From: Myxococcota bacterium
GTDB taxonomy: Bacteria > Myxococcota_A > Polyangia > Polyangiales > Houyiibacteriaceae
Direction: 5' to 3'
NCBI GenBank assembly: GCA_039030515.1
Contig: JBCCEA010000062.1
Coordinates: 1-14,942, forward strand
DNA length: 14,942 nucleotides
In this document: one piece after another, positions 1,107 to 14,942 of the stretch
Layout of the letters: every line of letters begins with the position of its first letter
How positions within the stretch are numbered: the first letter of the stretch is position 1
The notes under the pieces: generated by a model
Seen by the model: the letters and a program-made list of their open reading frames with translations, nothing else
Told to the model about the DNA's origin: nothing
Database searches by the model: none
Translations under genes and position numbers: made by a program

Positions 1107-2492
1107 TCAGGCTTCTTCTTCATCATCAATTCCATATTTCGAAAGTCGGTAGCGGAGGGAGCGAAAGCTTGTTCCGAGGAGCTTGGCGGCCTTGGTGCGC
1201 ACGCCAAACGCTTGCACAAGGGACTGGAGCAGCAGATTTTTTTCTATGGTTGCAAGGTAGTCGTCTAAGACGAACCCCTCCTCCGGAATGAGTTCGATGG
1301 ATCTTCGGGTTCCGCTCGCTGCTTCGATACCAGGCAGGTCTTCGACATCGATCGTCTCTTTCCGAGCCAGGGTCACTGCGCGCTCTACGATATTTTCCAG
1401 TTCGCGAATATTTCCCGGGAACGCGAGCAAGCTTAGGTGCCGCATCACTTCGGGAGAGAGCGTCAGCTGCTTCCGCTGTATCGCGCCGTGTTTGCGAACG
1501 AAGAACGCTGCAAGCATGGGAATGTCCTCCCTTCGTTGCTCGAGAGGCGGCGCTTGAATGCGTATGACGTTGAGCCGGTAGAACAGATCCTCGCGGAATC
1601 GACCCTCGTCCACCTCTTGTTCGACGTTTCGGTTGGTTGCGGCCACCACGCGAACATCGACTTCGAGCTCATCTCGGCCGCCGATAGCGCGCACTCGACG
1701 TTCTTGAAGCACTCGGAGTAATTTTACCTGCAGTGAAAGCGGCAGTTCTCCAATCTCATCGAGGAACAGAGTGCCGCCGTGGGCAGCCTTAAATAAGCCA
1801 TCTTTCGCCTTCGCGGCTCCCGTAAACGCACCTTTTTCGTAGCCGAAAAGCTCGCTCTCCATAAGATTTTCCGGCAGCGCTCCGCAATTGATGACCACAA
1901 ACGGATGATCGCAACGATCGCTGCGTCCATGCAGCTCGCGGGCGATGAGTTCCTTGCCCGTTCCACTCGGACCCGTAATGAATACGCTCGTGGGTGCATT
2001 GCAGACGCGCTCGACCATGGAGCGCACTTTTTTTATGGCTTCGGACGTTCCGATCAATCGGCTTCCATCGCTGGCTCCCTCGACCTGAGCACGAAGCGCG
2101 CGATTTTCCTCTACGATGACGCGTTTCTCTAAAGCCTTCTCGAGCGTCGCGAGGAGGAGGTGGTTTCGAAAAGGTTTTTGTACGTAATCGTACGCTCCCT
2201 TACGCATGGCATCGACCGCCTGCTCCGTCGTGGCGTACGCGGTCATCATCACAACTTGAGTGCTCTTGTCCTTGGACTTCACCGCTTCAAGGATGTCCAT
2301 CCCAGAACCATCCGGCATGACCAGGTCGGTTACCACCGCATCAAATGCCGATGCTTGCGCGATCTGACTCAGGCATTCGGTCGCGCTCTGGCAGCATTGA
2401 ACGTCATAACCGGACCGAGACAACAGAACGCGGAGCATGTGTCGCAAGCCGGGTTCATCGTCACATACGAGAATTCTCGCAGTTTCAGGCAA
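1107..2492 (-). CDS. pilR: Sigma-54-dependent NtrC-family response regulator, PilR-like
   Basis: Receiver domain (ILVCDDE...[11 protein letters not shown]...QKPF), AAA+ Walker [15 protein letters not shown] loop, Walker B LFLDEIGE and a C-terminal Fis-type HTH. Adjacent to the pilin gene. Likely start is TTG 2492, overlapping the upstream stop codon. Confidence 0.88.
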
Positions 2493-2769
2493 AGCCAGGA
2501 CGACGTTCTTCCTTTGGCTTTGGTGGTCGAACCGCCAGTCCGTGGATCGCCTCGTAGAGCACGGAGAGAACCGCGCCGTCTTCACGGCGTACAAGCGAGA
2601 GAAAGCTGTCGTAAAGTGTGGCTTGAAGCACGTCCGAAATCACCATCGCTTGCCCTGGTTGGCCGAGGTAGAACGAGAGGCGATGTTTTTCGGCCACGTG
2701 TATTGCTTCTTTGGAAAGGGTAAGCCCCGGGGTAACTTCGAGCATCTTGAGCAGGGTTGCACGGTCCAT
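2485..2769 (-). CDS. Hypothetical protein (94 aa) ending RRPGFA
   Basis: MDRATLLKML... ORF with globular-looking composition. Its stop overlaps the pilR start (TTGCCTGA) and it fills the gap to the divergent gene. Confidence 0.7.
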   Translation of the reverse strand: MDRATLLKMLEVTPGLTLSKEAIHVAEKHRLSFYLGQPGQAMVISDVLQATLYDSFLSLVRREDGAVLSVLYEAIHGLAVRPPKPKEERRPGFA

Positions 2770-2875
2770 GCATCTGATGGTTCCGGGAACTGCGCATGGC
2801 GTCAAGCGCCGGTTGCTTTTTGAGCGCTTCTCGTCTCGTGAGCCCTCGACCCATTCGCTATGGTCGAAAGAAACT

Positions 2876-3661
2876 ATGGAACCATCCGAATCCGAATCGT
2901 TGGTGCGTCAGGAAATCCGAGACGGTATTGCCGTTTGGACCCTTGATCGACCTAATCGGCGCAATGCGCTCTCCCGAGGCACACTCGAGCGACTGATCGA
3001 ATTGCGCAGCAAACTTCCTATATCTGTGCGCGCTGTCGTGCTGACGGGTGCAGGTGATAAGGCCTTTTGTGCCGGAGCAGACCTTAAAGAACGAAAAGAA
3101 ATGAGCGAGGAAGAGGTTCGCAGTTTGCTCGACCTGTTTCGCTCGACCCTGCATGAGGTTGACCGAATGCCGATTCCTACGATCGCAGCGATCGATGGAG
3201 TAGCGCTCGGCGGAGGCTTTGAACTGGCGATGGCTTGCGACTTTCGAATCATTCGGCGCACGGCCTCCGTCGGCTTGCCGGAGGTTTCGCTCGCGATCAT
3301 CCCGGGCGCGGGCGGGACCGTGCGTCTAACTCGCCTGGTTGGAGAAGCGAGGGCCAAAGAGTTGATCTTGCTTTCGAAACGATTGACCGCGGAGGAAGCC
3401 TACGGGCTTGGCCTTGCGCATCGCATACACGACACTTCAGCGCTGGAGGGGGCGATGGATTTGGCTCAGGACCTAGCGCGCAAGGCACCGATTGCGGTTT
3501 CGGCGGCGCTTGAAGCGATCGACGGTGCCGTCTGTCGGCCTCAAGACGATGCTCTAGATCGCGAACGCCGATGCTACGAGCGTACGCTGTCGTCGCAAGA
3601 CCGGATCGAAGCGCTGTCCGCTTTTGTCGAAAAGCGTCCACCCAGGTTCTTAGGTGAGTAG
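2876..3661 (+). CDS. Enoyl-CoA hydratase/isomerase (crotonase family; possibly methylglutaconyl-CoA hydratase-like)
   Basis: Motifs LDRPNRRNAL, AFCAGADLKE, ALGGGFELAMACD and GLPEVSLAIIPGAGGT, with both catalytic Glu present. Likely start is ATG 2876. Confidence 0.93.
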   Translation: MEPSESESLVRQEIRDGIAVWTLDRPNRRNALSRGTLERLIELRSKLPISVRAVVLTGAGDKAFCAGADLKERKEMSEEEVRSLLDLFRSTLHEVDRMPIPTIAAIDGVALGGGFELAMACDFRIIRRTASVGLPEVSLAIIPGAGGTVRLTRLVGEARAKELILLSKRLTAEEAYGLGLAHRIHDTSALEGAMDLAQDLARKAPIAVSAALEAIDGAVCRPQDDALDRERRCYERTLSSQDRIEALSAFVEKRPPRFLGE

Positions 3662-3702
3662 AACGCTCATTTTACCGCACGCACAGTTTTATTGAGGAGT
3701 CT

Positions 3703-4662
3703 ATGAATCCCGCTGATGATGAGTCTCACGCTGCGCTCCGAGAAATGGTTCGGAAAATCGTACGAACCGATCAGACGCCTCCATCCACCGATGCTTCCGT
3801 GCCCTCGCCGGTGCTGTTTGAGCGCCTGAGAGAGGGCGGCCTTTGGGAAATCACGTTGCCTCAAGATTTCGGCGGCTCCGATCTCGATCCACTTGCGGCG
3901 GTCGTGTTGCTGGAAGAGCTGGCGATGCACTCCGGGGTTTTGGCGGGCGCGGTGGCGGTGCAAGAGATCGTGCTGTCGGCCCTTGCTCGCTCGAGTCAGG
4001 AAAACGTCAGCTTCGCGAAAGTGCTTCGAACGCCTTGTTCCGCGTGGGTCTATCGAGGCGCTGAAGGGCCGTGGCGAGGCTGGGGGCAAACGCAGGGAGG
4101 AGTCGTGGTAGCTCAAGAAGGAGGCAGCTTTCGGGTTGTCCACGATCACCCGCTCAACCGTCAGACCGCGATGGGCATGGATGGGTTGTCCGTTGTCGCT
4201 CACGAATTGCCGAAAACGAGCACGCTGGATCAGATGGCCTCGACCGAACTGCAATCCATCGCAGACCGGTCGATCGCTGCAGTTGCGCTAGGTATCGGTG
4301 GTGACGCCTTAAGGCGCGCCAGGATCTATGCCCGAGAGCGTCGTCAGTTCGGGAGGCCGATTTCCGAGTTTCAGGCGATTGCGGAGTACATCGCGAATGG
4401 TGAAGTAAAACTCGACGCAACCCGTTGCCTACTGCATCGGGCCGCCTGCTCAGGTAGCGCAGGCGATGCATCGAGTGCACGGCTGTACGCTGTGGAGTCA
4501 GCGGTATGGGTTGCCGACGCGGCGCTGCAAATACACGGCGGCTACGGATATACGCGCGAGTTCCAAGTCGAAGCGTGTTTGAGAAACGCGATCGCTTGTC
4601 GAGATGGCTTCGGCACTACCGATGCGGTTCGTCAACAGGTAGCCGCTCGATACACCGCTTGA
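3703..4662 (+). CDS. Acyl-CoA dehydrogenase family protein, shortened and divergent
   Basis: N-terminal LPQDFGGS...LLEELA, C-terminal RRQFGRPISEFQAI and ALQIHGGYGY. RBS GAGGAG. Only 319 aa, with a reduced middle domain. Confidence 0.85.
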   Translation: MNPADDESHAALREMVRKIVRTDQTPPSTDASVPSPVLFERLREGGLWEITLPQDFGGSDLDPLAAVVLLEELAMHSGVLAGAVAVQEIVLSALARSSQENVSFAKVLRTPCSAWVYRGAEGPWRGWGQTQGGVVVAQEGGSFRVVHDHPLNRQTAMGMDGLSVVAHELPKTSTLDQMASTELQSIADRSIAAVALGIGGDALRRARIYARERRQFGRPISEFQAIAEYIANGEVKLDATRCLLHRAACSGSAGDASSARLYAVESAVWVADAALQIHGGYGYTREFQVEACLRNAIACRDGFGTTDAVRQQVAARYTA

Positions 4663-4668
4663 GGTACG

Positions 4669-5112
4669 TCACGGCGTACAGCGATGCCGGGCTCCGTCGC
4701 CGACTTTCAGAATCTCTAATCGAATGGGCACTACGCCGGCGCGAATCATATCAAGCTCCTCGGCCGCGCGTCTCGACAAGTCGACGATTCTGCTTCGATC
4801 ACGACCGAACGGCCCCCGATCGTTGAAGCGAACGACGACCGTGGCCCCCGTATCTTTGCGCACTACCCGAGCCACCGTCCCAAAAGGCAGTTCTCGACTT
4901 GCAGCGGTTCGTTTTCGAGGATCGTAGTGTTCTCCGTTCGCGGTGCAGTTGCCCGCTAGAGAGTCATGGTAGTAACTGGCGCGCCCTTCGATAACCGAAC
5001 TCGGAACGGTCGCGCTCGAGCGGGCACCCGATGAGGAAGTAGTGCCACATCCCCAAAACAGTAGAAGTCCGACCGAGAACAAAAAGCGCGTTGAGCGCGA
5101 GGTTCGATGCAT
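4669..5112 (-). CDS. rlpA: RlpA-family (DPBB) septal ring lytic transglycosylase lipoprotein
   Basis: GRASYY...TANGE.YD...TAASRELPFGT...VVVRFNDRGPF...RIVDLS..AA motifs and a lipobox-like FWGC. Start is ATG 5112 or 5145. Confidence 0.9.
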   Translation of the reverse strand: MHRTSRSTRFLFSVGLLLFWGCGTTSSSGARSSATVPSSVIEGRASYYHDSLAGNCTANGEHYDPRKRTAASRELPFGTVARVVRKDTGATVVVRFNDRGPFGRDRSRIVDLSRRAAEELDMIRAGVVPIRLEILKVGDGARHRCTP

Positions 5113-8790: not shown

Positions 8791-9306
8791 CTAAGAACGG
8801 TCGGTGCAGATCCGCAACTGATATTCGCGGAACTCATCGGTGCCTGCAACATGGCACCACAACTTTCGATCCACCGCGCTTCCTTGAATCACGCTCACTA
8901 CGAGGAATGAGCAAGGATAAGTGAGTGCGCCCCCCCAAGAGAAGGTGGCCGCGTCTTCCTCGGAAAAGTACGCACCGGCATCGCAGTGGCTATGGTAGAT
9001 AACCTTGAGGGGTCTCCCGTTTTTGTTCCCTTCTCGCTCTGCACTCGAAGCGCGTTGAGTGTCCATCACGAAATACTCCTTCGACGTACGCGGGAATTGC
9101 TCAGGGTACTTGGCGTGTAGCGCGTCTGCCTGATTGATCTCCCGCGAAAACGAATCAAGCCGCGGTGGATTATCTTTCGGCCCGAAGATCAATCCACATG
9201 CCTCACTGGGGTACTGCTCTTCGGCATGGGCTTCGATATCGAGAAGCACGGCAGAAGCGATTTCTAGATCTCCACAGATCCAAGGCGGGTCATGTTCCTT
9301 TGTCAC
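8791..9306 (-). CDS. JAB/MPN+ (Mov34, Mec-like) zinc metallopeptidase
   Basis: YPSEACGLI containing the catalytic Glu, and JAMM motif YHSHCDAGAYFSEED (HxH-x7-S-x2-D). Confidence 0.92.
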   Translation of the reverse strand: MTKEHDPPWICGDLEIASAVLLDIEAHAEEQYPSEACGLIFGPKDNPPRLDSFSREINQADALHAKYPEQFPRTSKEYFVMDTQRASSAEREGNKNGRPLKVIYHSHCDAGAYFSEEDAATFSWGGALTYPCSFLVVSVIQGSAVDRKLWCHVAGTDEFREYQLRICTDRS

Positions 9307-9311
9307 GATTC

Positions 9312-9800
9312 TTAGTTCTTTCGATGGTTGTTGGCGGAATGGTCCATCTGTGACCCTGCTTGTTGGTCTTCATGGAGTGCCGCGCGCCGAAGCACATCTA
9401 CCGCTGTGAGAGCACCTGTCAGAATCTCCAGCGCCGGCAGGTCTCCATCTGCGCTGCGCAGGAAGTCATAAGTTTCGGTACACAAATCCACGTCGGCTTG
9501 GTAGCTCGCGTCAGCGCGCAGGCGAGATGTCTCTTGATGTGGCGCGCATGACTGCGCGGTGACCATCGCTTGAACCCCCGGCTGTTGCTCGAGTCGTTCC
9601 TCATCGTCGAAACAGCTAGGATTCTTCCTCTCGCATACGGCAAGCCCCGCTCGCTCGAGATAGATCTTGGCATAACGAAGCGCGCCTTGCTGGGTTCCGG
9701 TAAGCCGCACCTCAGAGTTGAGGAGATGATCCTGAGCCCCCTGACCGATCACCAAGATCTGTCGCATATAGCGTTTCGAACTTCTACGGAACTCACTCAC
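9312..9800 (-). CDS. Degenerate ThiF/MoeB-like protein (N-terminal RYxRQ kept, catalytic motifs lost)
   Basis: RYMRQILVIGQGAQDHLLNSEVRLTG...YLERAG aligns by eye with the MoeB N-terminus, and TGALTAVDVLR resembles the C-terminal helix. No GxGGxG, SNLxRQ or CxxC. The GTG start overlaps the Ubl stop (GTGA). Confidence 0.7.
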   Translation of the reverse strand: MSEFRRSSKRYMRQILVIGQGAQDHLLNSEVRLTGTQQGALRYAKIYLERAGLAVCERKNPSCFDDEERLEQQPGVQAMVTAQSCAPHQETSRLRADASYQADVDLCTETYDFLRSADGDLPALEILTGALTAVDVLRRAALHEDQQAGSQMDHSANNHRKN

Positions 9801-10075
9801 AAGCCCCCTGCGATGGCAGGGACAATGGAAATTTCGTCGCCGTCCCGGAGCGAGGTTTCTAGCTCTTCCATCGAACGAATGTCCTCTTCGCCCACGTAGA
9901 TGTTGACGTGCCTGAGCACGCCACCGAGCTCGTCACAGAGACGCGCCTTGAGCCCCGGATAGTTGCCCTCGAGGTTCTCGATAACCTTTCCGACCGTTTC
10001 CCCTTCAGCGTCCACTTCATCTTTACCGCCGGTCAAAGTGCGCAAAGGGGTCGGAATACGTACGGATATAGACAT
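9797..10075 (-). CDS. MoaD/ThiS/CysO-family ubiquitin-like sulfur carrier (92 aa), C-terminus GGL
   Basis: MSISVRIPTPLRTLTGG...VNIYVGEEDIR...LRDGDEISIVPAIAGGL. RBS AGGAG lies upstream of ATG 10075. Confidence 0.93.
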   Translation of the reverse strand: MSISVRIPTPLRTLTGGKDEVDAEGETVGKVIENLEGNYPGLKARLCDELGGVLRHVNIYVGEEDIRSMEELETSLRDGDEISIVPAIAGGL

Positions 10076-10100
10076 TGTAATTGCACTCCTGTCTTGAGAT

Positions 10101-10817
10101 TCAGATGTACTGACTTCGATCGAGGCTTGGCGCGTCGGTAAGGCAGAGTGGACAGTCCGTTCTCCGTTGAATGACGCGCTTTGTGAGACGACTGCGAGAT
10201 CCGTCGTAGTGGATGAGTTGTCCTGCATCTTCGTAATCACCTCGCAAAATTCGCAGCGCGCTCCAAGCCTGAATGGCACCAAGCACGCCGACGACAGGTC
10301 CCACGACGCCTGCAGAGGCGCAGGTTTCGGGGACGCCCCGAGGGATGTCTTCAAAAACGCAGCGTAGACAAGCCGTGTGCTTTGGAATTGTGCTTAGCGA
10401 CCAACCATACCAGCGAACAGAGCCCGCCTGAACGACGGGCTTGTCGAGCAGACGCGCGGTGTCGGCAGCTAAAAACTTGGTGGCAAAGTTATCGCTTCCC
10501 TCGAGTAAGATTGTCGATTCTGCTGCAAGTTCGGCGGCGTTTGCGGGAAGAAAACGACTGGCGATCGATTGAACGGAAATCCGGTGTCCCTCCCGGCGGG
10601 CGGCATCTTTGAGTCGCTCAGCCGCAACTTCCACCTTTGGACGACCGACATCACTCGACTCGAATAGGATCTGACGGTGTAAGTTGCTTTCGTCTACGCT
10701 GTCATCATCAACTAGGGTGAGATGTATCGGACGGCTACGGGCGATCGCAAGCGCCGCCGGGGAACCGAGTCCGCCCAGGCCGATCACCAGGACACGAGGT
10801 CTTCGAGGGCCTCTCAT
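10101..10817 (-). CDS. ThiF/MoeB/HesA-family E1-like adenylyltransferase
   Basis: VLVIGLGGLG, DDDSVDESNLHRQ, GRPKV, GSDNF, zinc pairs CLRC and CPLC, and a Cys in TCASAGVVGP. Confidence 0.93.
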   Translation of the reverse strand: MRGPRRPRVLVIGLGGLGSPAALAIARSRPIHLTLVDDDSVDESNLHRQILFESSDVGRPKVEVAAERLKDAARREGHRISVQSIASRFLPANAAELAAESTILLEGSDNFATKFLAADTARLLDKPVVQAGSVRWYGWSLSTIPKHTACLRCVFEDIPRGVPETCASAGVVGPVVGVLGAIQAWSALRILRGDYEDAGQLIHYDGSRSRLTKRVIQRRTDCPLCLTDAPSLDRSQYI

Positions 10818-10917
10818 GGTTCAATCCCGATCGAGAACTGCTTCATGAAGAATTATCCGCTGGACTCCGCGTATCCAGAGTCCGCGCGGCGACCAGAAGC
10901 AAAGCGATCCACCGAAC

Positions 10918-11373
10918 TCAAATCGTATAGGCATAGCCGGGTATCCCCTTCGGACCGTGTGAGGTGCCGTTGCCGCGATCGCAAAGCGCCTGGATAGAAA
11001 CTTCGTTTAAGCACTCCTCCACACGCTTTGAGAGCTCAGCCAGGACCATTTTGGTGATCGTACGACTCGAGGTGCGCTCACAATCCATAGATTCGTCCGG
11101 ATCACTGATCCCCAAAGGACCCTCCACAGCGTATACGATGTCTCCCAGACTTACTGCATGGGCCGGTCTCCCCAAAACGTAGCCGCCCCTAGGCCCTCTC
11201 TTCGAGACGACAATCCCGGCTCGTTTCAAATCCTGAAATATCTGCTCGAGAAAGCGAGGAGGAATGGCCTGGCGTTCCGCAATTTCGCTGATTCGGGCTG
11301 GGCGGCCCTTGCCGTGGAACTCAACATCGAACACGGCGCGTATACCGTATCTACATTTGTTGGACAGTTTCAT
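10918..11373 (-). CDS. Rrf2-family transcriptional regulator (CymR-like rather than 3-Cys IscR)
   Basis: MKLSNKCRYGIRA...IAERQAIPPRFLEQIFQDLKRAGIVVSKRGPRGGYVL...VSLGDIVYAVEG. Only one Cys lies in the IscR cluster-ligand region. Confidence 0.93.
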   Translation of the reverse strand: MKLSNKCRYGIRAVFDVEFHGKGRPARISEIAERQAIPPRFLEQIFQDLKRAGIVVSKRGPRGGYVLGRPAHAVSLGDIVYAVEGPLGISDPDESMDCERTSSRTITKMVLAELSKRVEECLNEVSIQALCDRGNGTSHGPKGIPGYAYTI

Positions 11374-11507: not shown

Positions 11508-12083
11508 GTGGTTTGGAAGTGTCTCGATACGCGTCATGCCGCCGGCTTGAGAAGTACGTCGACCCGCGTAGGACTCTTCGTTCTTTGGCTTGTTGGCTGC
11601 CCAATTGAAGCCTCCTCCGAGCCCGAGTCCGAGCGCCTAAAGTCGACCGACTTTTACGCTGCATCGCTCGACAGCCGTCTCCGTAGGGCAGTAGACGTAT
11701 TGCGCACGCGAGGTTTCGACTCGGATGCGCCGATATTGCGCACCTTTCTGGTAGAGCGAGACGCCCATGTACACGACGCAACGCTCAGTCGTGGTCGATG
11801 TTATGTATTCGCAGGTGTCGCGACTGACGCGGTGGAGCAGCTGAGCATTCGAGTATTCGATAGTGACGGTGCCCGTGCAGTAGAGGAACATAGCTTAGGA
11901 GCCGCAACCGCAGCGTTCTTCTGTCCTTCGGACTCCGGACGCTACTTTGTCGCGCTGACTGCGAGCCGCGGCAACGGTCTACTCGCGTTTCGACGATTGT
12001 CGGGACCGACAGGACTGACTCTGAGGGTCGATGACATCTTCCGTCCCCGAGAGCAGGAAGGGCGTCCTGGGAGCGTCCAGTGA
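11508..12083 (+). CDS. Putative lipoprotein with one Cys-paired beta-rich domain
   Basis: Hydrophobic stretch plus lipobox LVGC. Domain RGF...GRCYVFAG...IRVFDSDG...FCPSDSGRY...GNG is shared with the next two genes. Exact start uncertain. Confidence 0.75.
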   Translation: MVWKCLDTRHAAGLRSTSTRVGLFVLWLVGCPIEASSEPESERLKSTDFYAASLDSRLRRAVDVLRTRGFDSDAPILRTFLVERDAHVHDATLSRGRCYVFAGVATDAVEQLSIRVFDSDGARAVEEHSLGAATAAFFCPSDSGRYFVALTASRGNGLLAFRRLSGPTGLTLRVDDIFRPREQEGRPGSVQ

Positions 12084-13864
12084 ACGCTCCGATTCGTACC
12101 TACCGGGACTTTGACCATCTCAGGCGGGCTCGACCGTGTGGAATGTGGACGGGCCTCTTGTGCATGCTGGTCGCCTGTCCACCGAGCACAGATCCGGCAG
12201 CTGTTCGGACCTCCCCGATCGAGGCGCGCATGCCTCCTGAGCCTCTCGATGCGCTCAGTCAGCGTCTCGGAAGGGTGAGGCGCCGCATGCGAGAGCGCGG
12301 CTATCGCGAGACCGCGGTACTCCCTCGAGAGTTCGTGCTGCAGGGCAGAGGCATCGTCGTGCCGCTCGAACTGACAAGTGGATTGTGTTCCACCTACGTA
12401 TCCCTTGCCGCTGGAGGCGTGCGGCGACTCCAGATGCTGCTTTACGACGAAAACGGACACGAGATCGCGAGCAGCCGTCAAGACGGAGAGGGCTTGGTTC
12501 ACGCCTGCCCCATAGCGACTCAAGCCGATCACTCCCCCTTGCACACACTGGCGCACTACCTCGTGATCCGCTCCCGGTCCGGTTCAGGAGCGGTTGTGTT
12601 TTCAAAGTTCGAATCTGAATTGGGGGAAGGAGATGGATTCGACGGGTTGTTCGACGGAATCCGAAGACCGATCGTGCCGCTCGATGAAACAGAAAAACAA
12701 CTGACGCAGGCGCGTTCTCTGCTCCGCAGTCGTGGATTGAGTCCGGTCGAGAACATGCACCTCGTCACCCTGGCAGAGTCAGAGGGAACGCGACGTTCCT
12801 ACGAATTGACGTCGGAGCGCTGTTATTTCGTCGTAGCTCGAGCGGGTGAGGGAGTACGTGACTTAGACGTCTACGTATTCGATGAAGACGGAGCAGAGGT
12901 GGAGCGGGAGCTCGATAGCAGAGACTCCGCCAATCTTCCGTTCTGCCCGACTGAAGACGGGAGACACACGATTGAAGTTCGCATATTTGAGGGCTCTGGA
13001 GCGGTGGGTTTGATGTTGATGGACGGACCTCCAAGTTCCGCTCGCAGCGCGCCGCTTCCGAGTTCTGCAGTCTCCCGAGGCACGGCTCGACCTGGCTCTT
13101 TGCGGGAGCGATCGAAGCAGTCGACTGCTTCGAAGCCGCTCAGGGGAACTCCGCTGGTCGGACTGCACAAACTCACGGAAGCCATGCAGGGCCGAGGCTA
13201 CGTGCGTCCGACGTTTGTCGCCCGCGAGGTTCGACTAGACCCCGGTGAGACCCGACGGCATCAGGTGCTGACCGGAGAACATTGTGTGGTTGTGATGGCT
13301 GCGGCAGACGACGCCACGGCAGATCTCGATCTCTATCTTTTCGACGGGCAAGCGCAATCCATCGACAGCGACGCAGGTATCGACTCCACGGCTCGAGTGG
13401 TTGCCTGCGCGGAAGAAGCCGAAGTTCTAGACCTTGCGGTCAAGTTGTATGGTCGACCGGCTGCGTACTCGGTCGTGATGCTCTTTGCGCCGAGCGAGTT
13501 ACAAGGGGTGCAGAGTATCCGCTTGGATCTGGCTGATGCGTTGTTTCGAGACCGAGGCTACGTCACCACGGTGGAGGCTGTGCGCGATATGGAAGTTGGC
13601 GAGCGTTTTGTTCAAGACTTCATTCTGGCCGCAGGTAGCTGTCTCGCGGTCGCTGCGGCAGGAGATCGAGGAGTGGAGGATGTGGACATTACCCTCCGCG
13701 GCGAGGATGGTCGGGTCCTTGCTTCTGCATCCGGACCGGAAGCCTGGGGTGCTGTGGGCAAGTGCGCCTCCCCCAATGAGCCGAGCCGCATGCTGTCGGC
13801 AGAAGTACTGATCTACCGCGGAGCCGGCCGAGTCGCGATTCGACACCTAGAGAACCCGGGTTGA
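12080..13864 (+). CDS. Putative lipoprotein with four tandem Cys-paired domains (PPC-like)
   Basis: 594-aa ORF with lipobox LVAC and four repeats of RG[YL]...C...DLD(L/V)Y.FD..G...C, variably conserved. GTGA overlap with the previous gene. Confidence 0.85.
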   Translation: MNAPIRTYRDFDHLRRARPCGMWTGLLCMLVACPPSTDPAAVRTSPIEARMPPEPLDALSQRLGRVRRRMRERGYRETAVLPREFVLQGRGIVVPLELTSGLCSTYVSLAAGGVRRLQMLLYDENGHEIASSRQDGEGLVHACPIATQADHSPLHTLAHYLVIRSRSGSGAVVFSKFESELGEGDGFDGLFDGIRRPIVPLDETEKQLTQARSLLRSRGLSPVENMHLVTLAESEGTRRSYELTSERCYFVVARAGEGVRDLDVYVFDEDGAEVERELDSRDSANLPFCPTEDGRHTIEVRIFEGSGAVGLMLMDGPPSSARSAPLPSSAVSRGTARPGSLRERSKQSTASKPLRGTPLVGLHKLTEAMQGRGYVRPTFVAREVRLDPGETRRHQVLTGEHCVVVMAAADDATADLDLYLFDGQAQSIDSDAGIDSTARVVACAEEAEVLDLAVKLYGRPAAYSVVMLFAPSELQGVQSIRLDLADALFRDRGYVTTVEAVRDMEVGERFVQDFILAAGSCLAVAAAGDRGVEDVDITLRGEDGRVLASASGPEAWGAVGKCASPNEPSRMLSAEVLIYRGAGRVAIRHLENPG

Positions 13865-13867
13865 GCG

Positions 13868-14942
13868 ATGCACGTGACACCGCGCTCCGAATCATGCGTC
13901 GCTTGCTTTCCGAGCGCGTTATGTGTGTCCCGATGTTCGTTTGCCTTCACCGCAACTCTGGTCGTTTCTGAGATCGTTTTGGGCGTTAGGATCGACGCAC
14001 GCGCGCAAGAGCACTCTGGTGAATTAGATTGTCGAGTAGAGGGTCTGGATGAAGAGGACCCGGATGCAGCCCGATGCGCCCCTGAAGTGGACGTGTCTCG
14101 CCTAGGATTGCGATGTGCAGAACGGGCGCGCGTGCAGATGGAGTCAAGCGGGGCGATCTGGACGTCTCGGGAGACGGTCTTTCTATCTTCGGGTGCGAGG
14201 GTGTCGTTGCCGTTTCCGCCGGGCGACCATTCCTGTTTCGGGGTTCTCGCCACCGGCTCGGAGCCGATGGGCGATCTGGATCTCGCCGTATTCTCGGCGC
14301 CTGGGGCTCTACTCGCGGAGGACGCGGGACCGTATGCGTACGCGTACGTAGCACTTTGTCGCGAGGACGCGGCAGGACACGCATTGACCCTCACAGCGTC
14401 CCGAGGAAGCGGAGAGGTGGTGCTCGATTTCTTCAAAGATGCACCATCGCATGTGCATCAGCTCAATCGCGATATCGGCCTTTGCTATGCTGGATGGACT
14501 GGTCCGCCCGCAGAGTCATCCGAACTACATCATTACGGCCCAGATCACGACGGCCCGAATCACGACGGCCCCGGTGCTTCAGTGGAGGCGATCGCTGCAG
14601 GTCATGTTCAAGAAGAGTTGCGTCGCGGCTGGCAGCTGCTCCAGACAGCCCGGGAGCCATCGTTCCAAGCTAACGTGGCGGCACAGACTCGGTTCAGCGT
14701 AGGAGCCGGCATGTGCTACCAGGTCCTTATTGCATTAGAAGAGCATATACCACCGGTCAAACTAAGGTTGGAAATGACCTCCACTCAGCATCACTCGGGG
14801 CCGATTCGCTCCTTAGAAGCCCGAGGGCGACATCCACGGTTGAAGTTCTGTGCGACGCGGTCTGGAGAGGTTACTGCAAAGGTCTATCTTCAGAGAGATC
14901 TAGAGGTTGATGCAGAGCAACTTGCGGTTTGCGTATTTACGC
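13868..14942 (+). CDS. Exported protein with at least two copies of the same domain, 3'-partial (absent from the ORF track)
   Basis: My manual translation from ATG 13868 is open for 358 codons to the window end. It has a signal-like ...ARA|QE, domain 1 SCFGVLATGSEPMGDLDLAVFSAPGALLAEDAG...LC...TASRGSG and domain 2 RGW...AGMCYQV...FCATRSG. Confidence 0.85.
   Translation, partial: MHVTPRSESCVACFPSALCVSRCSFAFTATLVVSEIVLGVRIDARAQEHSGELDCRVEGLDEEDPDAARCAPEVDVSRLGLRCAERARVQMESSGAIWTSRETVFLSSGARVSLPFPPGDHSCFGVLATGSEPMGDLDLAVFSAPGALLAEDAGPYAYAYVALCREDAAGHALTLTASRGSGEVVLDFFKDAPSHVHQLNRDIGLCYAGWTGPPAESSELHHYGPDHDGPNHDGPGASVEAIAAGHVQEELRRGWQLLQTAREPSFQANVAAQTRFSVGAGMCYQVLIALEEHIPPVKLRLEMTSTQHHSGPIRSLEARGRHPRLKFCATRSGEVTAKVYLQRDLEVDAEQLAVCVFT
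14531..14572 (+). repeat. In-frame 15-bp repeat, about 2.8 copies, encoding HYGPD-HDGPN-HDGP
   Basis: CATTACGGCCCAGAT / CACGACGGCCCGAAT / CACGACGGCCCC in the interdomain linker. Confidence 0.85.

What the first reader, a model, noticed from the sequence alone, without database searches (positions are those of the whole stretch)
9312..10817. Two complementary E1 genes flanking a Ubl: candidate heterodimeric bacterial E1
Seen: the 238-aa E1 has all catalytic motifs but starts just before its first beta-strand (MRGPRRPRVLVIGLGG). An in-frame TGA two codons upstream means it truly lacks the N-terminal RYxRQ helix. The 162-aa gene keeps exactly that segment (RYMRQ, 9773-9759) plus scaffold helices, but has lost the Gly loop, SNLxRQ and the zinc sites. 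Established: in homodimeric MoeB, Arg14 of RYNRQ reaches in trans into the partner's ATP site. In the eukaryotic heterodimers APPBP1-UBA3 and SAE1-UBA2, the inactive subunit supplies this Arg. Inference: these two genes form an active/inactive E1 heterodimer, a bacterial parallel of the eukaryotic architecture, acting on the Ubl encoded between them.
Basis: partly seen in the sequence, partly recalled or inferred. Interest (0 to 1): 0.85.

Follow-up and report, generated by a model that had tools for sequence, protein, structure and literature searches.

The report
Two-gene bacterial E1 activating enzyme
A myxobacterial sulfur-carrier operon encodes its activating enzyme in two pieces, a catalytic E1 that lacks its N-terminal arginine helix and a small dead E1 remnant that keeps it, and the two are predicted to pair like the two-subunit E1 enzymes of eukaryotes.

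Summary
On the minus strand lie Rrf2, a 238-aa ThiF/MoeB-type E1 (10101-10817), a 92-aa ThiS/MoaD-type Ubl ending GGL, a 162-aa protein here called X (9312-9800), and a JAMM peptidase. The E1 starts at the position of ThiF residue 30 / MoeB residue 32, and an in-frame TGA lies two codons upstream. X has no Pfam hit. A profile of 29 syntenic orthologues matches ThiF and MoeB (E about 1e-7) over their first ~58 residues plus the late dimer helix. The second Arg of RYxRQ was R in 29 of 29 and in 73 of 73 further copies; one further copy, in neither set (G016), carries Gln. X follows the Ubl in 73 of 80 named Myxococcota loci, and all 42 of 42 relatives with the short E1 have X. No short E1 carries an upstream RYxRQ. 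A complex prediction of E1 + X + ATP scored ipSAE 0.90 (best control 0.00) and used a MoeB-like dimer interface. The heterodimer reading is therefore supported in silico, not shown. Three caveats apply: the Arg finger is reported as non-essential in MoeB and ThiF, two genomes have the short E1 without X, and single-chain (BilD) and eukaryotic precedents exist. I rate it a new variant of a known kind.

The parts
10918..11373 (-). Rrf2-family transcription regulator, first gene of the cluster
   Evidence: PF02082 5.1e-34; TIGR00738 1.3e-33, with IscR and CymR models below their cut-offs. It precedes the E1 in most related loci.
10821..10823 (-). In-frame TGA two codons upstream of the E1 start codon
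   Evidence: The frame reads ...LDRD*TM. This excludes an N-terminal extension in this frame.
10101..10817 (-). Catalytic E1 (ThiF/MoeB-type adenylyltransferase), 238 aa, lacking the N-terminal RYxRQ helices and lacking a rhodanese domain
   Evidence: PF00899 6.6e-50, profile positions 20-237. Aligns with ThiF 30-243 and MoeB 32-247. Gly loop, SNLHRQ, Asp109, two CxxC and Cys166 are conserved in 30 orthologues.
9797..10075 (-). ThiS/MoaD-type ubiquitin-like sulfur carrier, 92 aa, ending AIAGGL (one residue after Gly-Gly)
   Evidence: PF02597 2.3e-17. SAMP1 model 59.8 bits against a cut-off of 60; moaD_arch 54.5 against 49.5. 18 of 30 orthologues carry 1-4 residues after GG.
9312..9800 (-). X: degenerate ThiF-domain protein (candidate inactive E1 subunit), 162 aa; its GTG start overlaps the Ubl stop (GTGA)
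   Evidence: No Pfam hit. Family profile against ThiF 1.2e-7 and MoeB 1.9e-7. Model pLDDT 73.8 with an alpha-alpha-alpha-beta-alpha-beta start and a long C-terminal helix. Predicted to bind the E1.
9759..9773 (-). RYMRQ motif of X (Arg10-Gln14); Arg13 corresponds to MoeB Arg14 / ThiF Arg11
   Evidence: Only R[YF]xRQ in six frames of the window. Arg13 is invariant in 29 of 29 and 73 of 73 copies. Residues 9-14 lie in the predicted interface.
8791..9306 (-). JAMM/MPN+ metallopeptidase (Mec+/desampylase-like), 171 aa, with HSHCDAGAYFSEED motif
   Evidence: PF14464 9.8e-16. It ends the cluster in related loci.

Best explanation
The cluster encodes a ThiS/MoaD-type sulfur-carrier system whose E1 is made of two polypeptides. 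The 238-aa protein is the catalytic subunit. It binds ATP and adenylates the C-terminal glycine of the Ubl, after the JAMM peptidase has removed the residue(s) that follow Gly-Gly. It lacks the N-terminal helices that, in homodimeric MoeB and ThiF, reach across the dimer and place an arginine at the partner's ATP phosphates. X is a shrunken, catalytically dead ThiF paralogue. It keeps those helices with the invariant Arg, the first beta-alpha-beta unit, and the late helix that forms the MoeB-type dimer contact. X takes the place of the second protomer, giving a 1:1 pseudo-dimer with one active site, which it completes in trans. Each partner has lost the parts that would have served the other, now dead, site. 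In most relatives the activated Ubl feeds a CysM-type cysteine synthase, and the JAMM enzyme releases cysteine (CysO/Mec+ logic). In this window both cysteine-synthase genes are missing from the cluster, so the acceptor is open. Shown here: gene content, homology, conservation, synteny. Predicted: E1-X binding and its interface. Inferred: the trans Arg function, the stoichiometry and the pathway chemistry.
For: E1 truncation is real and clade-wide. Its Pfam match covers profile positions 20-237 and it aligns from ThiF residue 30 / MoeB residue 32. No R[YFHW]xR[QH] lies upstream in frame in the window's E1 or in 29 relatives, nor in 80 named loci. The genome's other ThiF (394-aa frame) has RYSRH 27 residues before its Gly loop. 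X is ThiF-derived: profile residues 2-59 match ThiF 2-58 and residues 89-110 match ThiF 198-219 (E 1.2e-7), MoeB scores 1.9e-7, Uba4 2e-6, and SAE1 and APPBP1 0.07-0.08. By my reading of the list, about 44 of the 50 top VIA-align rows are E1-family, with Z up to 7.3. The Atlas gives TM 0.77 over 116 of 121 residues to a MoeB cluster. X is under purifying selection: median dN/dS 0.295 against 0.159 for the E1. Arg13 is R in 29 of 29 and 73 of 73 copies, and no conserved Cys exists. Co-occurrence is strong. 42 of 42 relatives with the short E1 have X: 40 adjacent, 1 on another contig end, 1 seen by eye. 15 of 18 relatives without the short E1 have no X-type hit. 73 of 80 named loci have X after the Ubl. 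Complex model E1+X+ATP: ipSAE 0.92/0.90/0.89 (median 0.90), best of 3 controls 0.00. That mark was reached by 116 of 157 solved complexes and 2 of 215 mismatched pairs. The runs agree in at least 90% of contacts, and partner pLDDT is at least 56. The interface joins the X helix 119-138 to the E1 helix 166-189, and X 9-14 and 46-52 to E1 42-50.
Against: No experiment exists, and the complex score may reflect likeness to solved MoeB/ThiF homodimers (warning). The Arg13-to-ATP distance could not be read. A 2026 paper states that the Arg fingers of MoeB (Arg14) and ThiF (Arg11) are not catalytically essential and that E. coli TcdA lacks one (PMC13139853, passages). Two genomes (those of L100 and L141) have short E1-Ubl-CysM-JAMM with no room for X and no X-type hit elsewhere at E <= 1e-3; their completeness is unknown, and one of them, G444, is unpublished. 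In G016 the locus has no Ubl gene and X carries Gln instead of the Arg. In two genomes X stays with the Ubl while the E1 lies elsewhere. The profile comparison of X against the short E1 is not significant (E 0.37, 16 columns). Foldseek alone gave no hit at E <= 0.001, and VIA-align Z stays below 8.
Confidence: 0.7

Rival explanations
1. The short E1 is self-sufficient (for example as a homodimer without Arg fingers). X is an accessory protein that binds the same face to regulate, stabilise or localise it, or to hand the Ubl on to CysM or JAMM, and is not needed for catalysis.
For: The Arg finger is reported as non-essential in MoeB and ThiF and is absent from TcdA (PMC13139853, passages). Two genomes have short E1-Ubl-CysM-JAMM without X. 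The G016 copy of X has Gln at the Arg position. X evolves about twice as fast as the E1 (dN/dS 0.295 against 0.159).
Against: The Arg is R in 102 of 102 aligned copies, which is hard to explain for a mere scaffold. The losses are reciprocal and complementary: E1 covers ThiF 30-243, X covers ThiF 2-58 plus 198-219. Co-occurrence is near-perfect. The predicted interface places the RYMRQ segment against the E1 SNLHRQ region.
Confidence: 0.17
2. X works mainly on the Ubl, not the E1. It could be a carrier or chaperone for the Ubl or its thiocarboxylate, or a substitute for the missing rhodanese or E2 function.
For: X is always next to the Ubl and often translationally coupled to it (start overlaps or lies within about 10 nt of the Ubl stop). 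It stays with the Ubl when the E1 is unlinked (L148, L153). The operon E1 lacks a rhodanese domain.
Against: X has no conserved cysteine; the invariant columns are R13, L26, G52, A133. It therefore has no persulfide or thioester chemistry. Its homology is to the E1 adenylation domain, not to E2, RWD or rhodanese. It is confidently predicted against the E1. Ubl-X binding was not tested.
Confidence: 0.08
3. X is a non-functional relic of a duplicated or split E1 gene, or an ORF called by chance.
For: The window's X alone finds only itself in 1.8 billion representatives and in the word-indexed search. It has no Pfam hit, and its middle part (residues 62-98) is modelled with pLDDT below 50.
Against: The family has 88 clusters at E <= 1e-3 among the 8000 candidates scored and Atlas clusters of 277, 122 and 61 members. 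It keeps a conserved position and reading frame across many families of the phylum. dN/dS is 0.295, and key residues are invariant.
Confidence: 0.02

Closest known systems
Eukaryotic heterodimeric E1s: NAE1(APPBP1)-UBA3 and SAE1-SAE2(UBA2)
   Same: Two genes encode one active and one inactive ThiF-type adenylation unit, paired through the MoeB-like dimer face to give a single ATP site. The inactive unit keeps the N-terminal Arg; the BilD preprint says eukaryotic E1s receive a key Arg from the inactive domain (PMC10557695, passages). The X profile weakly matches the SAE1 and APPBP1 N-termini (E 0.07-0.08) and aligns structurally (Z 6.4-6.8).
   Different: The eukaryotic inactive subunits are full-size domains (chains of 313-530 residues), whereas X is about 90-160 aa and keeps only the N-terminal third plus one helix. 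The active partner here has no inserted catalytic-Cys domain, no ubiquitin-fold domain and no E2 in the cluster. The likely chemistry is sulfur transfer. The origin is probably independent.
BilD, the E1 of bacterial BilABCD antiviral ubiquitination systems
   Same: It is bacterial and has an inactive plus an active adenylation domain forming a pseudo-dimer, with Arg9 supplied by the inactive domain (PMC10557695, abstract and passages).
   Different: In BilD both domains lie in one polypeptide, with a mobile Cys domain and a dedicated E2 and DUB, and it conjugates the Ubl to proteins. Here there are two genes separated by the Ubl gene, a far smaller inactive unit and a sulfur-metabolism context. 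[quoted passage not shown]
Yeast Tcd1-Tcd2 (ct6A dehydratase, ThiF family)
   Same: It is an active/inactive ThiF-domain heterodimer in which the inactive Tcd1 donates an Arg finger (Arg59) to the Tcd2 site (PMC13139853, passages).
   Different: It is a eukaryotic tRNA-modifying enzyme and both subunits are full-length. R59A had little effect there, which warns that the Arg need not be essential.
Homodimeric MoeB and ThiF (E. coli)
   Same: The catalytic subunit is a clear homologue (ThiF 2.5e-37, MoeB 1.8e-27) with all core motifs. The predicted E1-X interface uses the equivalent helices.
   Different: MoeB and ThiF carry the RYxRQ helices themselves and have two active sites per dimer. Here these helices are absent from the enzyme and encoded by a separate gene.
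CysO-CysM-Mec+ cysteine pathway and 'ThiS/MoaD + E1 + JAB + cysteine synthase' operons (Iyer, Burroughs and Aravind 2006, Table 1 row 4c)
   Same: Ubl, JAMM peptidase and E1 occur here, with a CysM-like gene in 64 of the 73 related loci that have X. Operon type 4c is described in PMC1779556 (passages). The mycobacterial pathway is known to me from search listings only and from recall.
   Different: [quoted passage not shown] Here the E1 has no rhodanese and no N-terminal helix, and X is added. The window itself lacks CysM.

Membership tests
ThiF/MoeB-type E1 adenylyltransferase (PF00899): the 238-aa protein | Profile match above the curated cut-off | tested here: met
   169.9 bits against a cut-off of 28.1.
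ThiF/MoeB-type E1 adenylyltransferase (PF00899): the 238-aa protein | Nucleotide-binding Gly loop, the Arg/Gln of SNLxRQ, and the catalytic Asp | tested here: met
   GLGGLG 13-18, SNLHRQ 44-49 and Asp109 align with the ThiF and MoeB motifs and are invariant in 30 orthologues.
ThiF/MoeB-type E1 adenylyltransferase (PF00899): the 238-aa protein | Two CxxC zinc motifs and the crossover-loop Cys | tested here: met
   CLRC 150-153, CPLC 222-225 and Cys166 are present; C150, C153, C166 and C222 are invariant.
ThiF/MoeB-type E1 adenylyltransferase (PF00899): the 238-aa protein | N-terminal helices with the RYxRQ arginine finger | tested here: not met
   The match starts at profile position 20, equal to ThiF residue 30 / MoeB residue 32. 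An in-frame TGA lies two codons upstream.
ThiF/MoeB-type E1 adenylyltransferase (PF00899): the 238-aa protein | Homodimer with two active sites | not tested
Inactive adenylation subunit or domain of an asymmetric E1 (NAE1, SAE1, BilD IAD, Tcd1): X | Derived from the ThiF adenylation fold | tested here: met
   Profile E 1.2e-7 to ThiF and 1.9e-7 to MoeB. VIA-align Z 6.8 (103 aligned, rmsd 3.2) to ThiF 1zud, a middling value. Atlas TM 0.77 by query. Only 6 of 29 members touch PF00899 individually, best 6e-4, and the window's copy does not.
Inactive adenylation subunit or domain of an asymmetric E1 (NAE1, SAE1, BilD IAD, Tcd1): X | Loss of the ATP-binding and catalytic motifs | tested here: met
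   GTQQGA replaces GxGGxG. There is no SNLxRQ, no catalytic Asp region and no CxxC. ThiF residues about 59-197 have no counterpart.
Inactive adenylation subunit or domain of an asymmetric E1 (NAE1, SAE1, BilD IAD, Tcd1): X | Retains the N-terminal Arg that completes the partner's ATP site | tested here: met
   Arg13 is R in 29 of 29 and 73 of 73; one exception carries Gln (G016). Whether it reaches ATP could not be read.
Inactive adenylation subunit or domain of an asymmetric E1 (NAE1, SAE1, BilD IAD, Tcd1): X | Forms a pseudo-dimer with an active subunit | tested here: inconclusive
   In-silico pass only: ipSAE 0.90 against a best control of 0.00, a mark reached by 116 of 157 solved and 2 of 215 mismatched pairs; runs agree in at least 90% of contacts; partner pLDDT at least 56. 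The pass may stem from likeness to solved MoeB/ThiF dimers.
CysO-CysM-Mec+ type sulfur-carrier cysteine pathway | ThiS/MoaD-fold carrier with C-terminal Gly-Gly | tested here: met
   PF02597 2.3e-17. It ends GGL, so one residue must be removed.
CysO-CysM-Mec+ type sulfur-carrier cysteine pathway | JAMM/MPN+ hydrolase in the cluster | tested here: met
   PF14464 9.8e-16, with the HSHCDAGAYFSEED motif.
CysO-CysM-Mec+ type sulfur-carrier cysteine pathway | CysM-type PLP enzyme linked to the carrier | tested here: not met
   None lies in the window's cluster. The only cysteine-synthase-like gene found in the 85%-complete genome is 40% identical to a relative's operon CysM. CysM follows X in 64 of the 73 related loci that have X.
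SAMP/UbaA-type Ubl protein conjugation | Carrier and E1 reach the curated equivalog scores | tested here: not met
   SAMP1 scores 59.8 against 60 (just under). UbaA scores 144.6 against 450. Desampylase scores 28.2 against 130.

The most novel reading that the evidence does not exclude
This is an independently evolved, two-gene active/inactive E1 heterodimer in a bacterial sulfur-carrier pathway, widespread in Myxococcota. Its inactive subunit, at about 90-160 aa, is the smallest known to me: the Arg-finger helices, one beta-alpha-beta unit and the dimer helix. It would show that E1 asymmetry, regarded as a hallmark of eukaryotic and BilD-type ubiquitination, also arises in plain MoeB/ThiF-type enzymes by duplication and reciprocal loss. 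It would also define the minimal part of a second protomer that an E1 active site needs. X could further act as a limiting, regulated subunit that switches Ubl activation on.
Probability: 0.6. Interest if true: 0.75.

Novelty: new variant of a known kind. Interest (0 to 1): 0.65.

Why it matters
Bacterial ThiF/MoeB-type E1s are textbook symmetric homodimers. Asymmetric E1s with one dead and one live adenylation unit are treated as a step towards eukaryotic ubiquitination, and in bacteria they are so far described only for the fused BilD enzyme. A common, two-gene version in an ordinary sulfur-carrier operon would give a simple natural system for three questions: what the second protomer contributes, how heterodimeric E1s arise, and whether the trans arginine matters. 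It also gives a function to a family of roughly 120-aa 'hypothetical proteins' without a Pfam domain. Finally, it corrects gene calls that start X at an internal Met.

Tried and rejected
- **X alone against sequence databases.** The word-indexed search of 5.8 billion proteins and phmmer against 1.84 billion representatives each found only X itself. A single-protein search of 60 relatives found one weak hit. Homologues appeared only through synteny and a profile.
- **The search for related loci with the X alignments.** I used the E1 alignment A3 instead.
- **Foldseek on the X model.** No match reached E <= 0.001, though the best local rows are E1 family members. VIA-align Z stays at or below 7.3, which is middling.
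- **hhalign of the X profile against the short-E1 profile.** It was not significant (E 0.37). Duplication of the neighbouring E1 versus another origin therefore stays open.
- **Expression.** No RNA holder was listed for the operon; four DNA runs of one study were found and none was laid.
- **Earlier notes of this scan.** Nothing was found near the window.
- **Literature.** Five full-text searches and passages of PMC1779556 gave no description of a separate inactive partner gene for a bacterial ThiF/MoeB-type E1. Burroughs, Iyer and Aravind 2009, 'Natural history of the E1-like superfamily', was not read (I did not request it) and may bear on novelty.
- **Alternatives considered and rejected.** An upstream extension of the E1 by another frame or start is excluded, because a stop lies in frame and no motif occurs in any frame. 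X as a sulfurtransferase or E2-like carrier is unlikely, because it has no conserved Cys.
Full report
**What is there.** The minus strand between 11373 and 8791 carries five tightly packed genes.
- An Rrf2-family regulator lies at 10918-11373.
- A 238-aa ThiF/MoeB-type E1 lies at 10101-10817.
- A 92-aa ThiS/MoaD-type ubiquitin-like carrier ending AIAGGL lies at 9797-10075.
- A 162-aa protein, which I call X, lies at 9312-9800.
- A JAMM/MPN+ peptidase lies at 8791-9306.

These assignments rest. The GTG start of X overlaps the Ubl stop (GTGA), and the JAMM gene starts 5 bases after the X stop. On one side the neighbours are rimM, trmD, an RNA methyltransferase and rplS. On the other side are three ORFs without a Pfam family. 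No other sulfur-metabolism gene lies in the window.

- The E1 frame upstream of its ATG reads ...LDRD*TM, so a TGA lies two codons upstream.
- The Pfam ThiF match begins at profile position 20 of 238.
- Against solved structures, E1 residue 8 aligns with ThiF residue 30 and E1 residue 7 with MoeB residue 32.
- The E1 therefore lacks the roughly 30 residues that hold ThiF Arg11 / MoeB Arg14.
- The rest is intact: Gly loop, SNLHRQ, Asp109, two CxxC motifs and the crossover-loop Cys166. All of these are conserved across 30 orthologues.
- RYMRQ in X (9773-9759) is the only R[YF]xRQ in any frame of the window.
- X reads GTQQGA where the Gly loop would be and has no SNLxRQ or CxxC.

**X is a real, conserved, ThiF-derived protein.** Taken alone it looks like an orphan. 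It has no Pfam family, and it finds only itself in two very large protein searches.

Synteny resolves this. I fetched 29 loci around E1 orthologues (45-58% identical) from related genomes. Each has an ORF of about 90-150 aa directly after the Ubl. These ORFs begin R[YF]xR[QH]..L.EIG..GQ..L, continue ..YL.RAG.., and end ..GAFAAVE.IK.

Several tests support homology to the E1 adenylation domain.
- A profile of these sequences matches E. coli ThiF (E 1.2e-7), MoeB (1.9e-7) and Uba4 (2e-6). Profile positions 2-59 match chain residues 2-58, and positions 89-110 match chain residues 198-220. It also weakly matches the inactive eukaryotic subunits SAE1 and APPBP1 (0.07-0.08).
- The AlphaFold2 model of the window's X has pLDDT 73.8 and pTM 0.64. 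Residues 62-98 are poorly modelled. It has three N-terminal helices, a beta-alpha-beta unit and a long C-terminal helix.
- Foldseek gave no significant E-value. Its best local matches are E1 family members, for example SAE1 with 54 columns at 1.4 A.
- VIA-align gave Z 5.5-7.3 to TcdA, Uba4, ThiF, MoeB, APPBP1 and SAE1. This is middling, but by my reading of the list about 44 of the 50 rows are E1 family members.
- The ESM Atlas holds a typical 121-aa orthologue. Its model aligns over 116 residues with MoeB/ThiF clusters (TM 0.75-0.77 by query). Its own clusters (277, 122 and 61 members) are 'hypothetical protein', commonest in Myxococcota.
- The profile search of 5.8 billion proteins gave 88 clusters, mostly 121 aa, none with a Pfam domain. 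Where named, most are labelled hypothetical proteins, many from Myxococcales, Polyangiales or Deltaproteobacteria MAGs; two carry an adenylyltransferase name.
- Among 19 loci, median dN/dS is 0.295 for X (104 of 171 pairs usable) and 0.159 for the E1 (135 of 171 pairs usable). dS is near saturation, so these figures are rough.

**The key arginine.** Arg13 of X, the second Arg of RYxRQ, is the counterpart of MoeB Arg14 and ThiF Arg11. It is invariant in 29 of 29 copies. Two of those 29 were located by their motif, so they are not independent. In 73 further copies, retrieved by profile and by position downstream of E1 orthologues, it is R in 73 of 73. The first Arg is R in 65 of 73. The one exception I saw is G016, which has RYLQQ in a locus that also lacks the Ubl gene. 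No cysteine is conserved in X.

**The E1 truncation is shared by the whole group.** No R[YFHW]xR[QH] lies in frame upstream of the Gly loop in the window's E1 or in the E1s of 29 relatives. None lies there in 80 named loci either. The start codon usually sits 8-12 codons before the Gly loop and abuts the upstream gene. The genome's second ThiF gene is a MoeZ-like paralogue with a 394-aa frame, and it has the normal RYSRH.

**Co-occurrence among 60 relatives.** 42 of the 60 have the short E1, and all 42 have X.
- In 40, X lies on the same contig within about 1.1 kb.
- In one (G009), X and the E1 lie at two different contig ends.
- In one (G052), X is too divergent for the profile at 1e-4 but is plainly present as LRHSRQ...GEVGQ between the Ubl and the JAMM gene.

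Of the 18 relatives without the short E1, 15 have no X-type hit. Two fragmented genomes have X at a contig edge, and one hit is ambiguous.

**Co-occurrence among 80 named loci.** Nearly all titles name Myxococcota (Polyangiales, Sandaracinaceae, Myxococcales or 'Deltaproteobacteria' MAGs). A few read Pseudomonadota, Proteobacteria or 'uncultured bacterium'.
- 73 have X after the Ubl.
- 3 end at a contig edge before the place where X would lie.
- 4 lack X at that place.

Of those four, two genomes have X elsewhere, still next to the Ubl (L148 and L153). The other two have E1-Ubl-CysM-JAMM with no room for X and no X-type hit in the genome at E <= 1e-3. These are the genome of L141 and the genome of L100. 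The latter claim rests on G444, which the tool marks as unpublished.

Related genomes are not independent, so these counts show a clade-wide association, not a statistical test. A sample of 400 genomes of the phylum shows X-type hits (full profile coverage, short frames) in many families.

**Predicted complex.** E1 (30-row alignment), X (29-row alignment) and ATP gave ipSAE 0.92, 0.90 and 0.89 (median 0.90). The best of 3 controls scored 0.00. This mark was reached by 116 of 157 solved complexes and by 2 of 215 mismatched pairs. The runs agree in at least 90% of contacts. Partner pLDDT is at least 56, and the E1 scores 88-89.

The tightest contacts join the X helix 119-138 to the E1 helix 166-189. 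They also join X 46-52 (YLERAG) and X 9-14 (KRYMRQ) to E1 20-29 and 42-50, which holds SNLHRQ. This is the kind of face by which MoeB and ThiF dimerise, so X would sit where the second protomer sits. MoeB and ThiF homodimers are solved structures, so the pass may come from likeness. The model supports binding and does not show it.

**Mechanism I consider most likely (0.7).** The enzyme is a 1:1 pseudo-dimer with one active site. X supplies in trans the N-terminal helices and the Arg that the catalytic subunit has lost. X has lost the catalytic core that the E1's missing helices would have served.

In ThiF coordinates the two proteins overlap: X covers 2-58 and 198-219, and the E1 covers 30-243. 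This points to duplication followed by reciprocal loss rather than a simple gene split. The point is weak, because a direct X-versus-E1 profile comparison is not significant (E 0.37).

The pathway is most likely of the CysO type. In 64 of the 73 related loci with X, a CysM-like gene follows X, and another cysteine-synthase-family gene precedes the E1. 18 of 30 Ubls carry 1-4 residues after Gly-Gly, which fits trimming by the JAMM enzyme.

The window has the shorter form Rrf2-E1-Ubl-X-JAMM. This form is also seen in 7 of the 73 loci, and G052 likewise has JAMM directly after X with no CysM in the cluster. The 85%-complete genome holds only one cysteine-synthase-like gene, 40% identical to a relative's operon CysM. 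The acceptor of the activated Ubl in this organism is therefore open. The sulfur donor is also open: the E1 has no rhodanese domain and X has no conserved Cys.

[quoted passage not shown] Together with the two genomes without X and the Gln variant, this keeps alive the rival that the short E1 works by itself and X is an accessory partner (0.17). A Ubl-directed role for X gets 0.08, and a dead relic gets 0.02.

**Comparison with what is known.** Operons joining a ThiS/MoaD protein, an E1 fused to rhodanese, a JAB peptidase and a cysteine synthase were described in 2006 (PMC1779556, Table 1 row 4c, passages read). In that paper 'truncated' occurs 0 times, and the 'inactive' passages shown refer to E2-like domains.

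Asymmetric E1s are known as eukaryotic two-gene heterodimers, as the fused bacterial BilD and as yeast Tcd1-Tcd2. In BilD, Arg9 comes from the inactive domain. [quoted passage not shown]

My five literature searches found no report of a separate inactive partner gene for a bacterial ThiF/MoeB-type E1. The 2009 survey of the E1-like superfamily was not read. I file the finding as a new variant of a known kind. The principle is known. The two-gene bacterial form, the very small inactive unit and the sulfur-carrier setting are not described in what I could search.

Noticed in passing
window 8791-11373, compared with L004 and L068-L147: The window's cluster lacks both cysteine-synthase-family genes that flank E1-Ubl-X in most relatives (64 of 73 loci have a CysM-like gene after X). 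The same short form, Rrf2-E1-Ubl-X-JAMM, recurs in 7 of those 73 loci, several of them titled Sandaracinaceae or Sandaracinus. The 85%-complete genome has only one cysteine-synthase-like gene, 40% identical to a relative's operon CysM.
   Followed up: partly
L066 (G016:C46) 1387-3204: A variant locus reads Rrf2-E1-X-JAMM with no Ubl gene between E1 and X. Here X reads RYLQQ (Gln in place of the otherwise invariant Arg), and the second zinc motif of the E1 is degenerate.
   Followed up: no
L065 (G052:C1) 2126-4764: A 187-aa Cys-rich protein with a signal-like N-terminus is inserted between the E1 and the Ubl. X in this locus (LRHSRQ..., 136 aa) keeps a more Gly-loop-like GDGAAAG and escaped the X profile at 1e-4.
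   Followed up: no
L100 and L141 (genomes G444, marked unpublished, and G445): These loci have the short E1-Ubl-CysM-JAMM with no X gene and no X-type hit elsewhere in the genome. They are the only clear exceptions to the E1/X association.
   Followed up: partly
Ubl genes of the window and L004-L034: 18 of 30 Ubls end with 1-4 extra residues after Gly-Gly (R, L, A, I, AQL, ARR, STH, RGAC, SWHG). The extension is often created by the overlap with the X start codon.
   Followed up: no
window 9767-9800: The only database copy of X (P0001, 151 aa) is called from the internal Met12, which removes Arg10-Tyr11 of the motif. The upstream GTG, with an AGGGGG Shine-Dalgarno-like stretch and the GTGA overlap, fits the orthologues better.
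   Followed up: partly
window 11508-14941 (+): Three consecutive ORFs (191, 594 and more than 358 aa) have no Pfam family. By eye, the 594-aa protein holds about four copies, and the 191-aa protein one copy, of a roughly 60-residue unit of the form RG[YFL]...C....A......[DL]D..[LV][FY]D..G (translations).
   Followed up: no
ESM Atlas result for L011:797-1162: A cluster of 195-aa 'ThiF family domain-containing' proteins, commonest in Candidatus Binatota, is among the structural neighbours of X. It may be another shortened ThiF outside Myxococcota.
   Followed up: no
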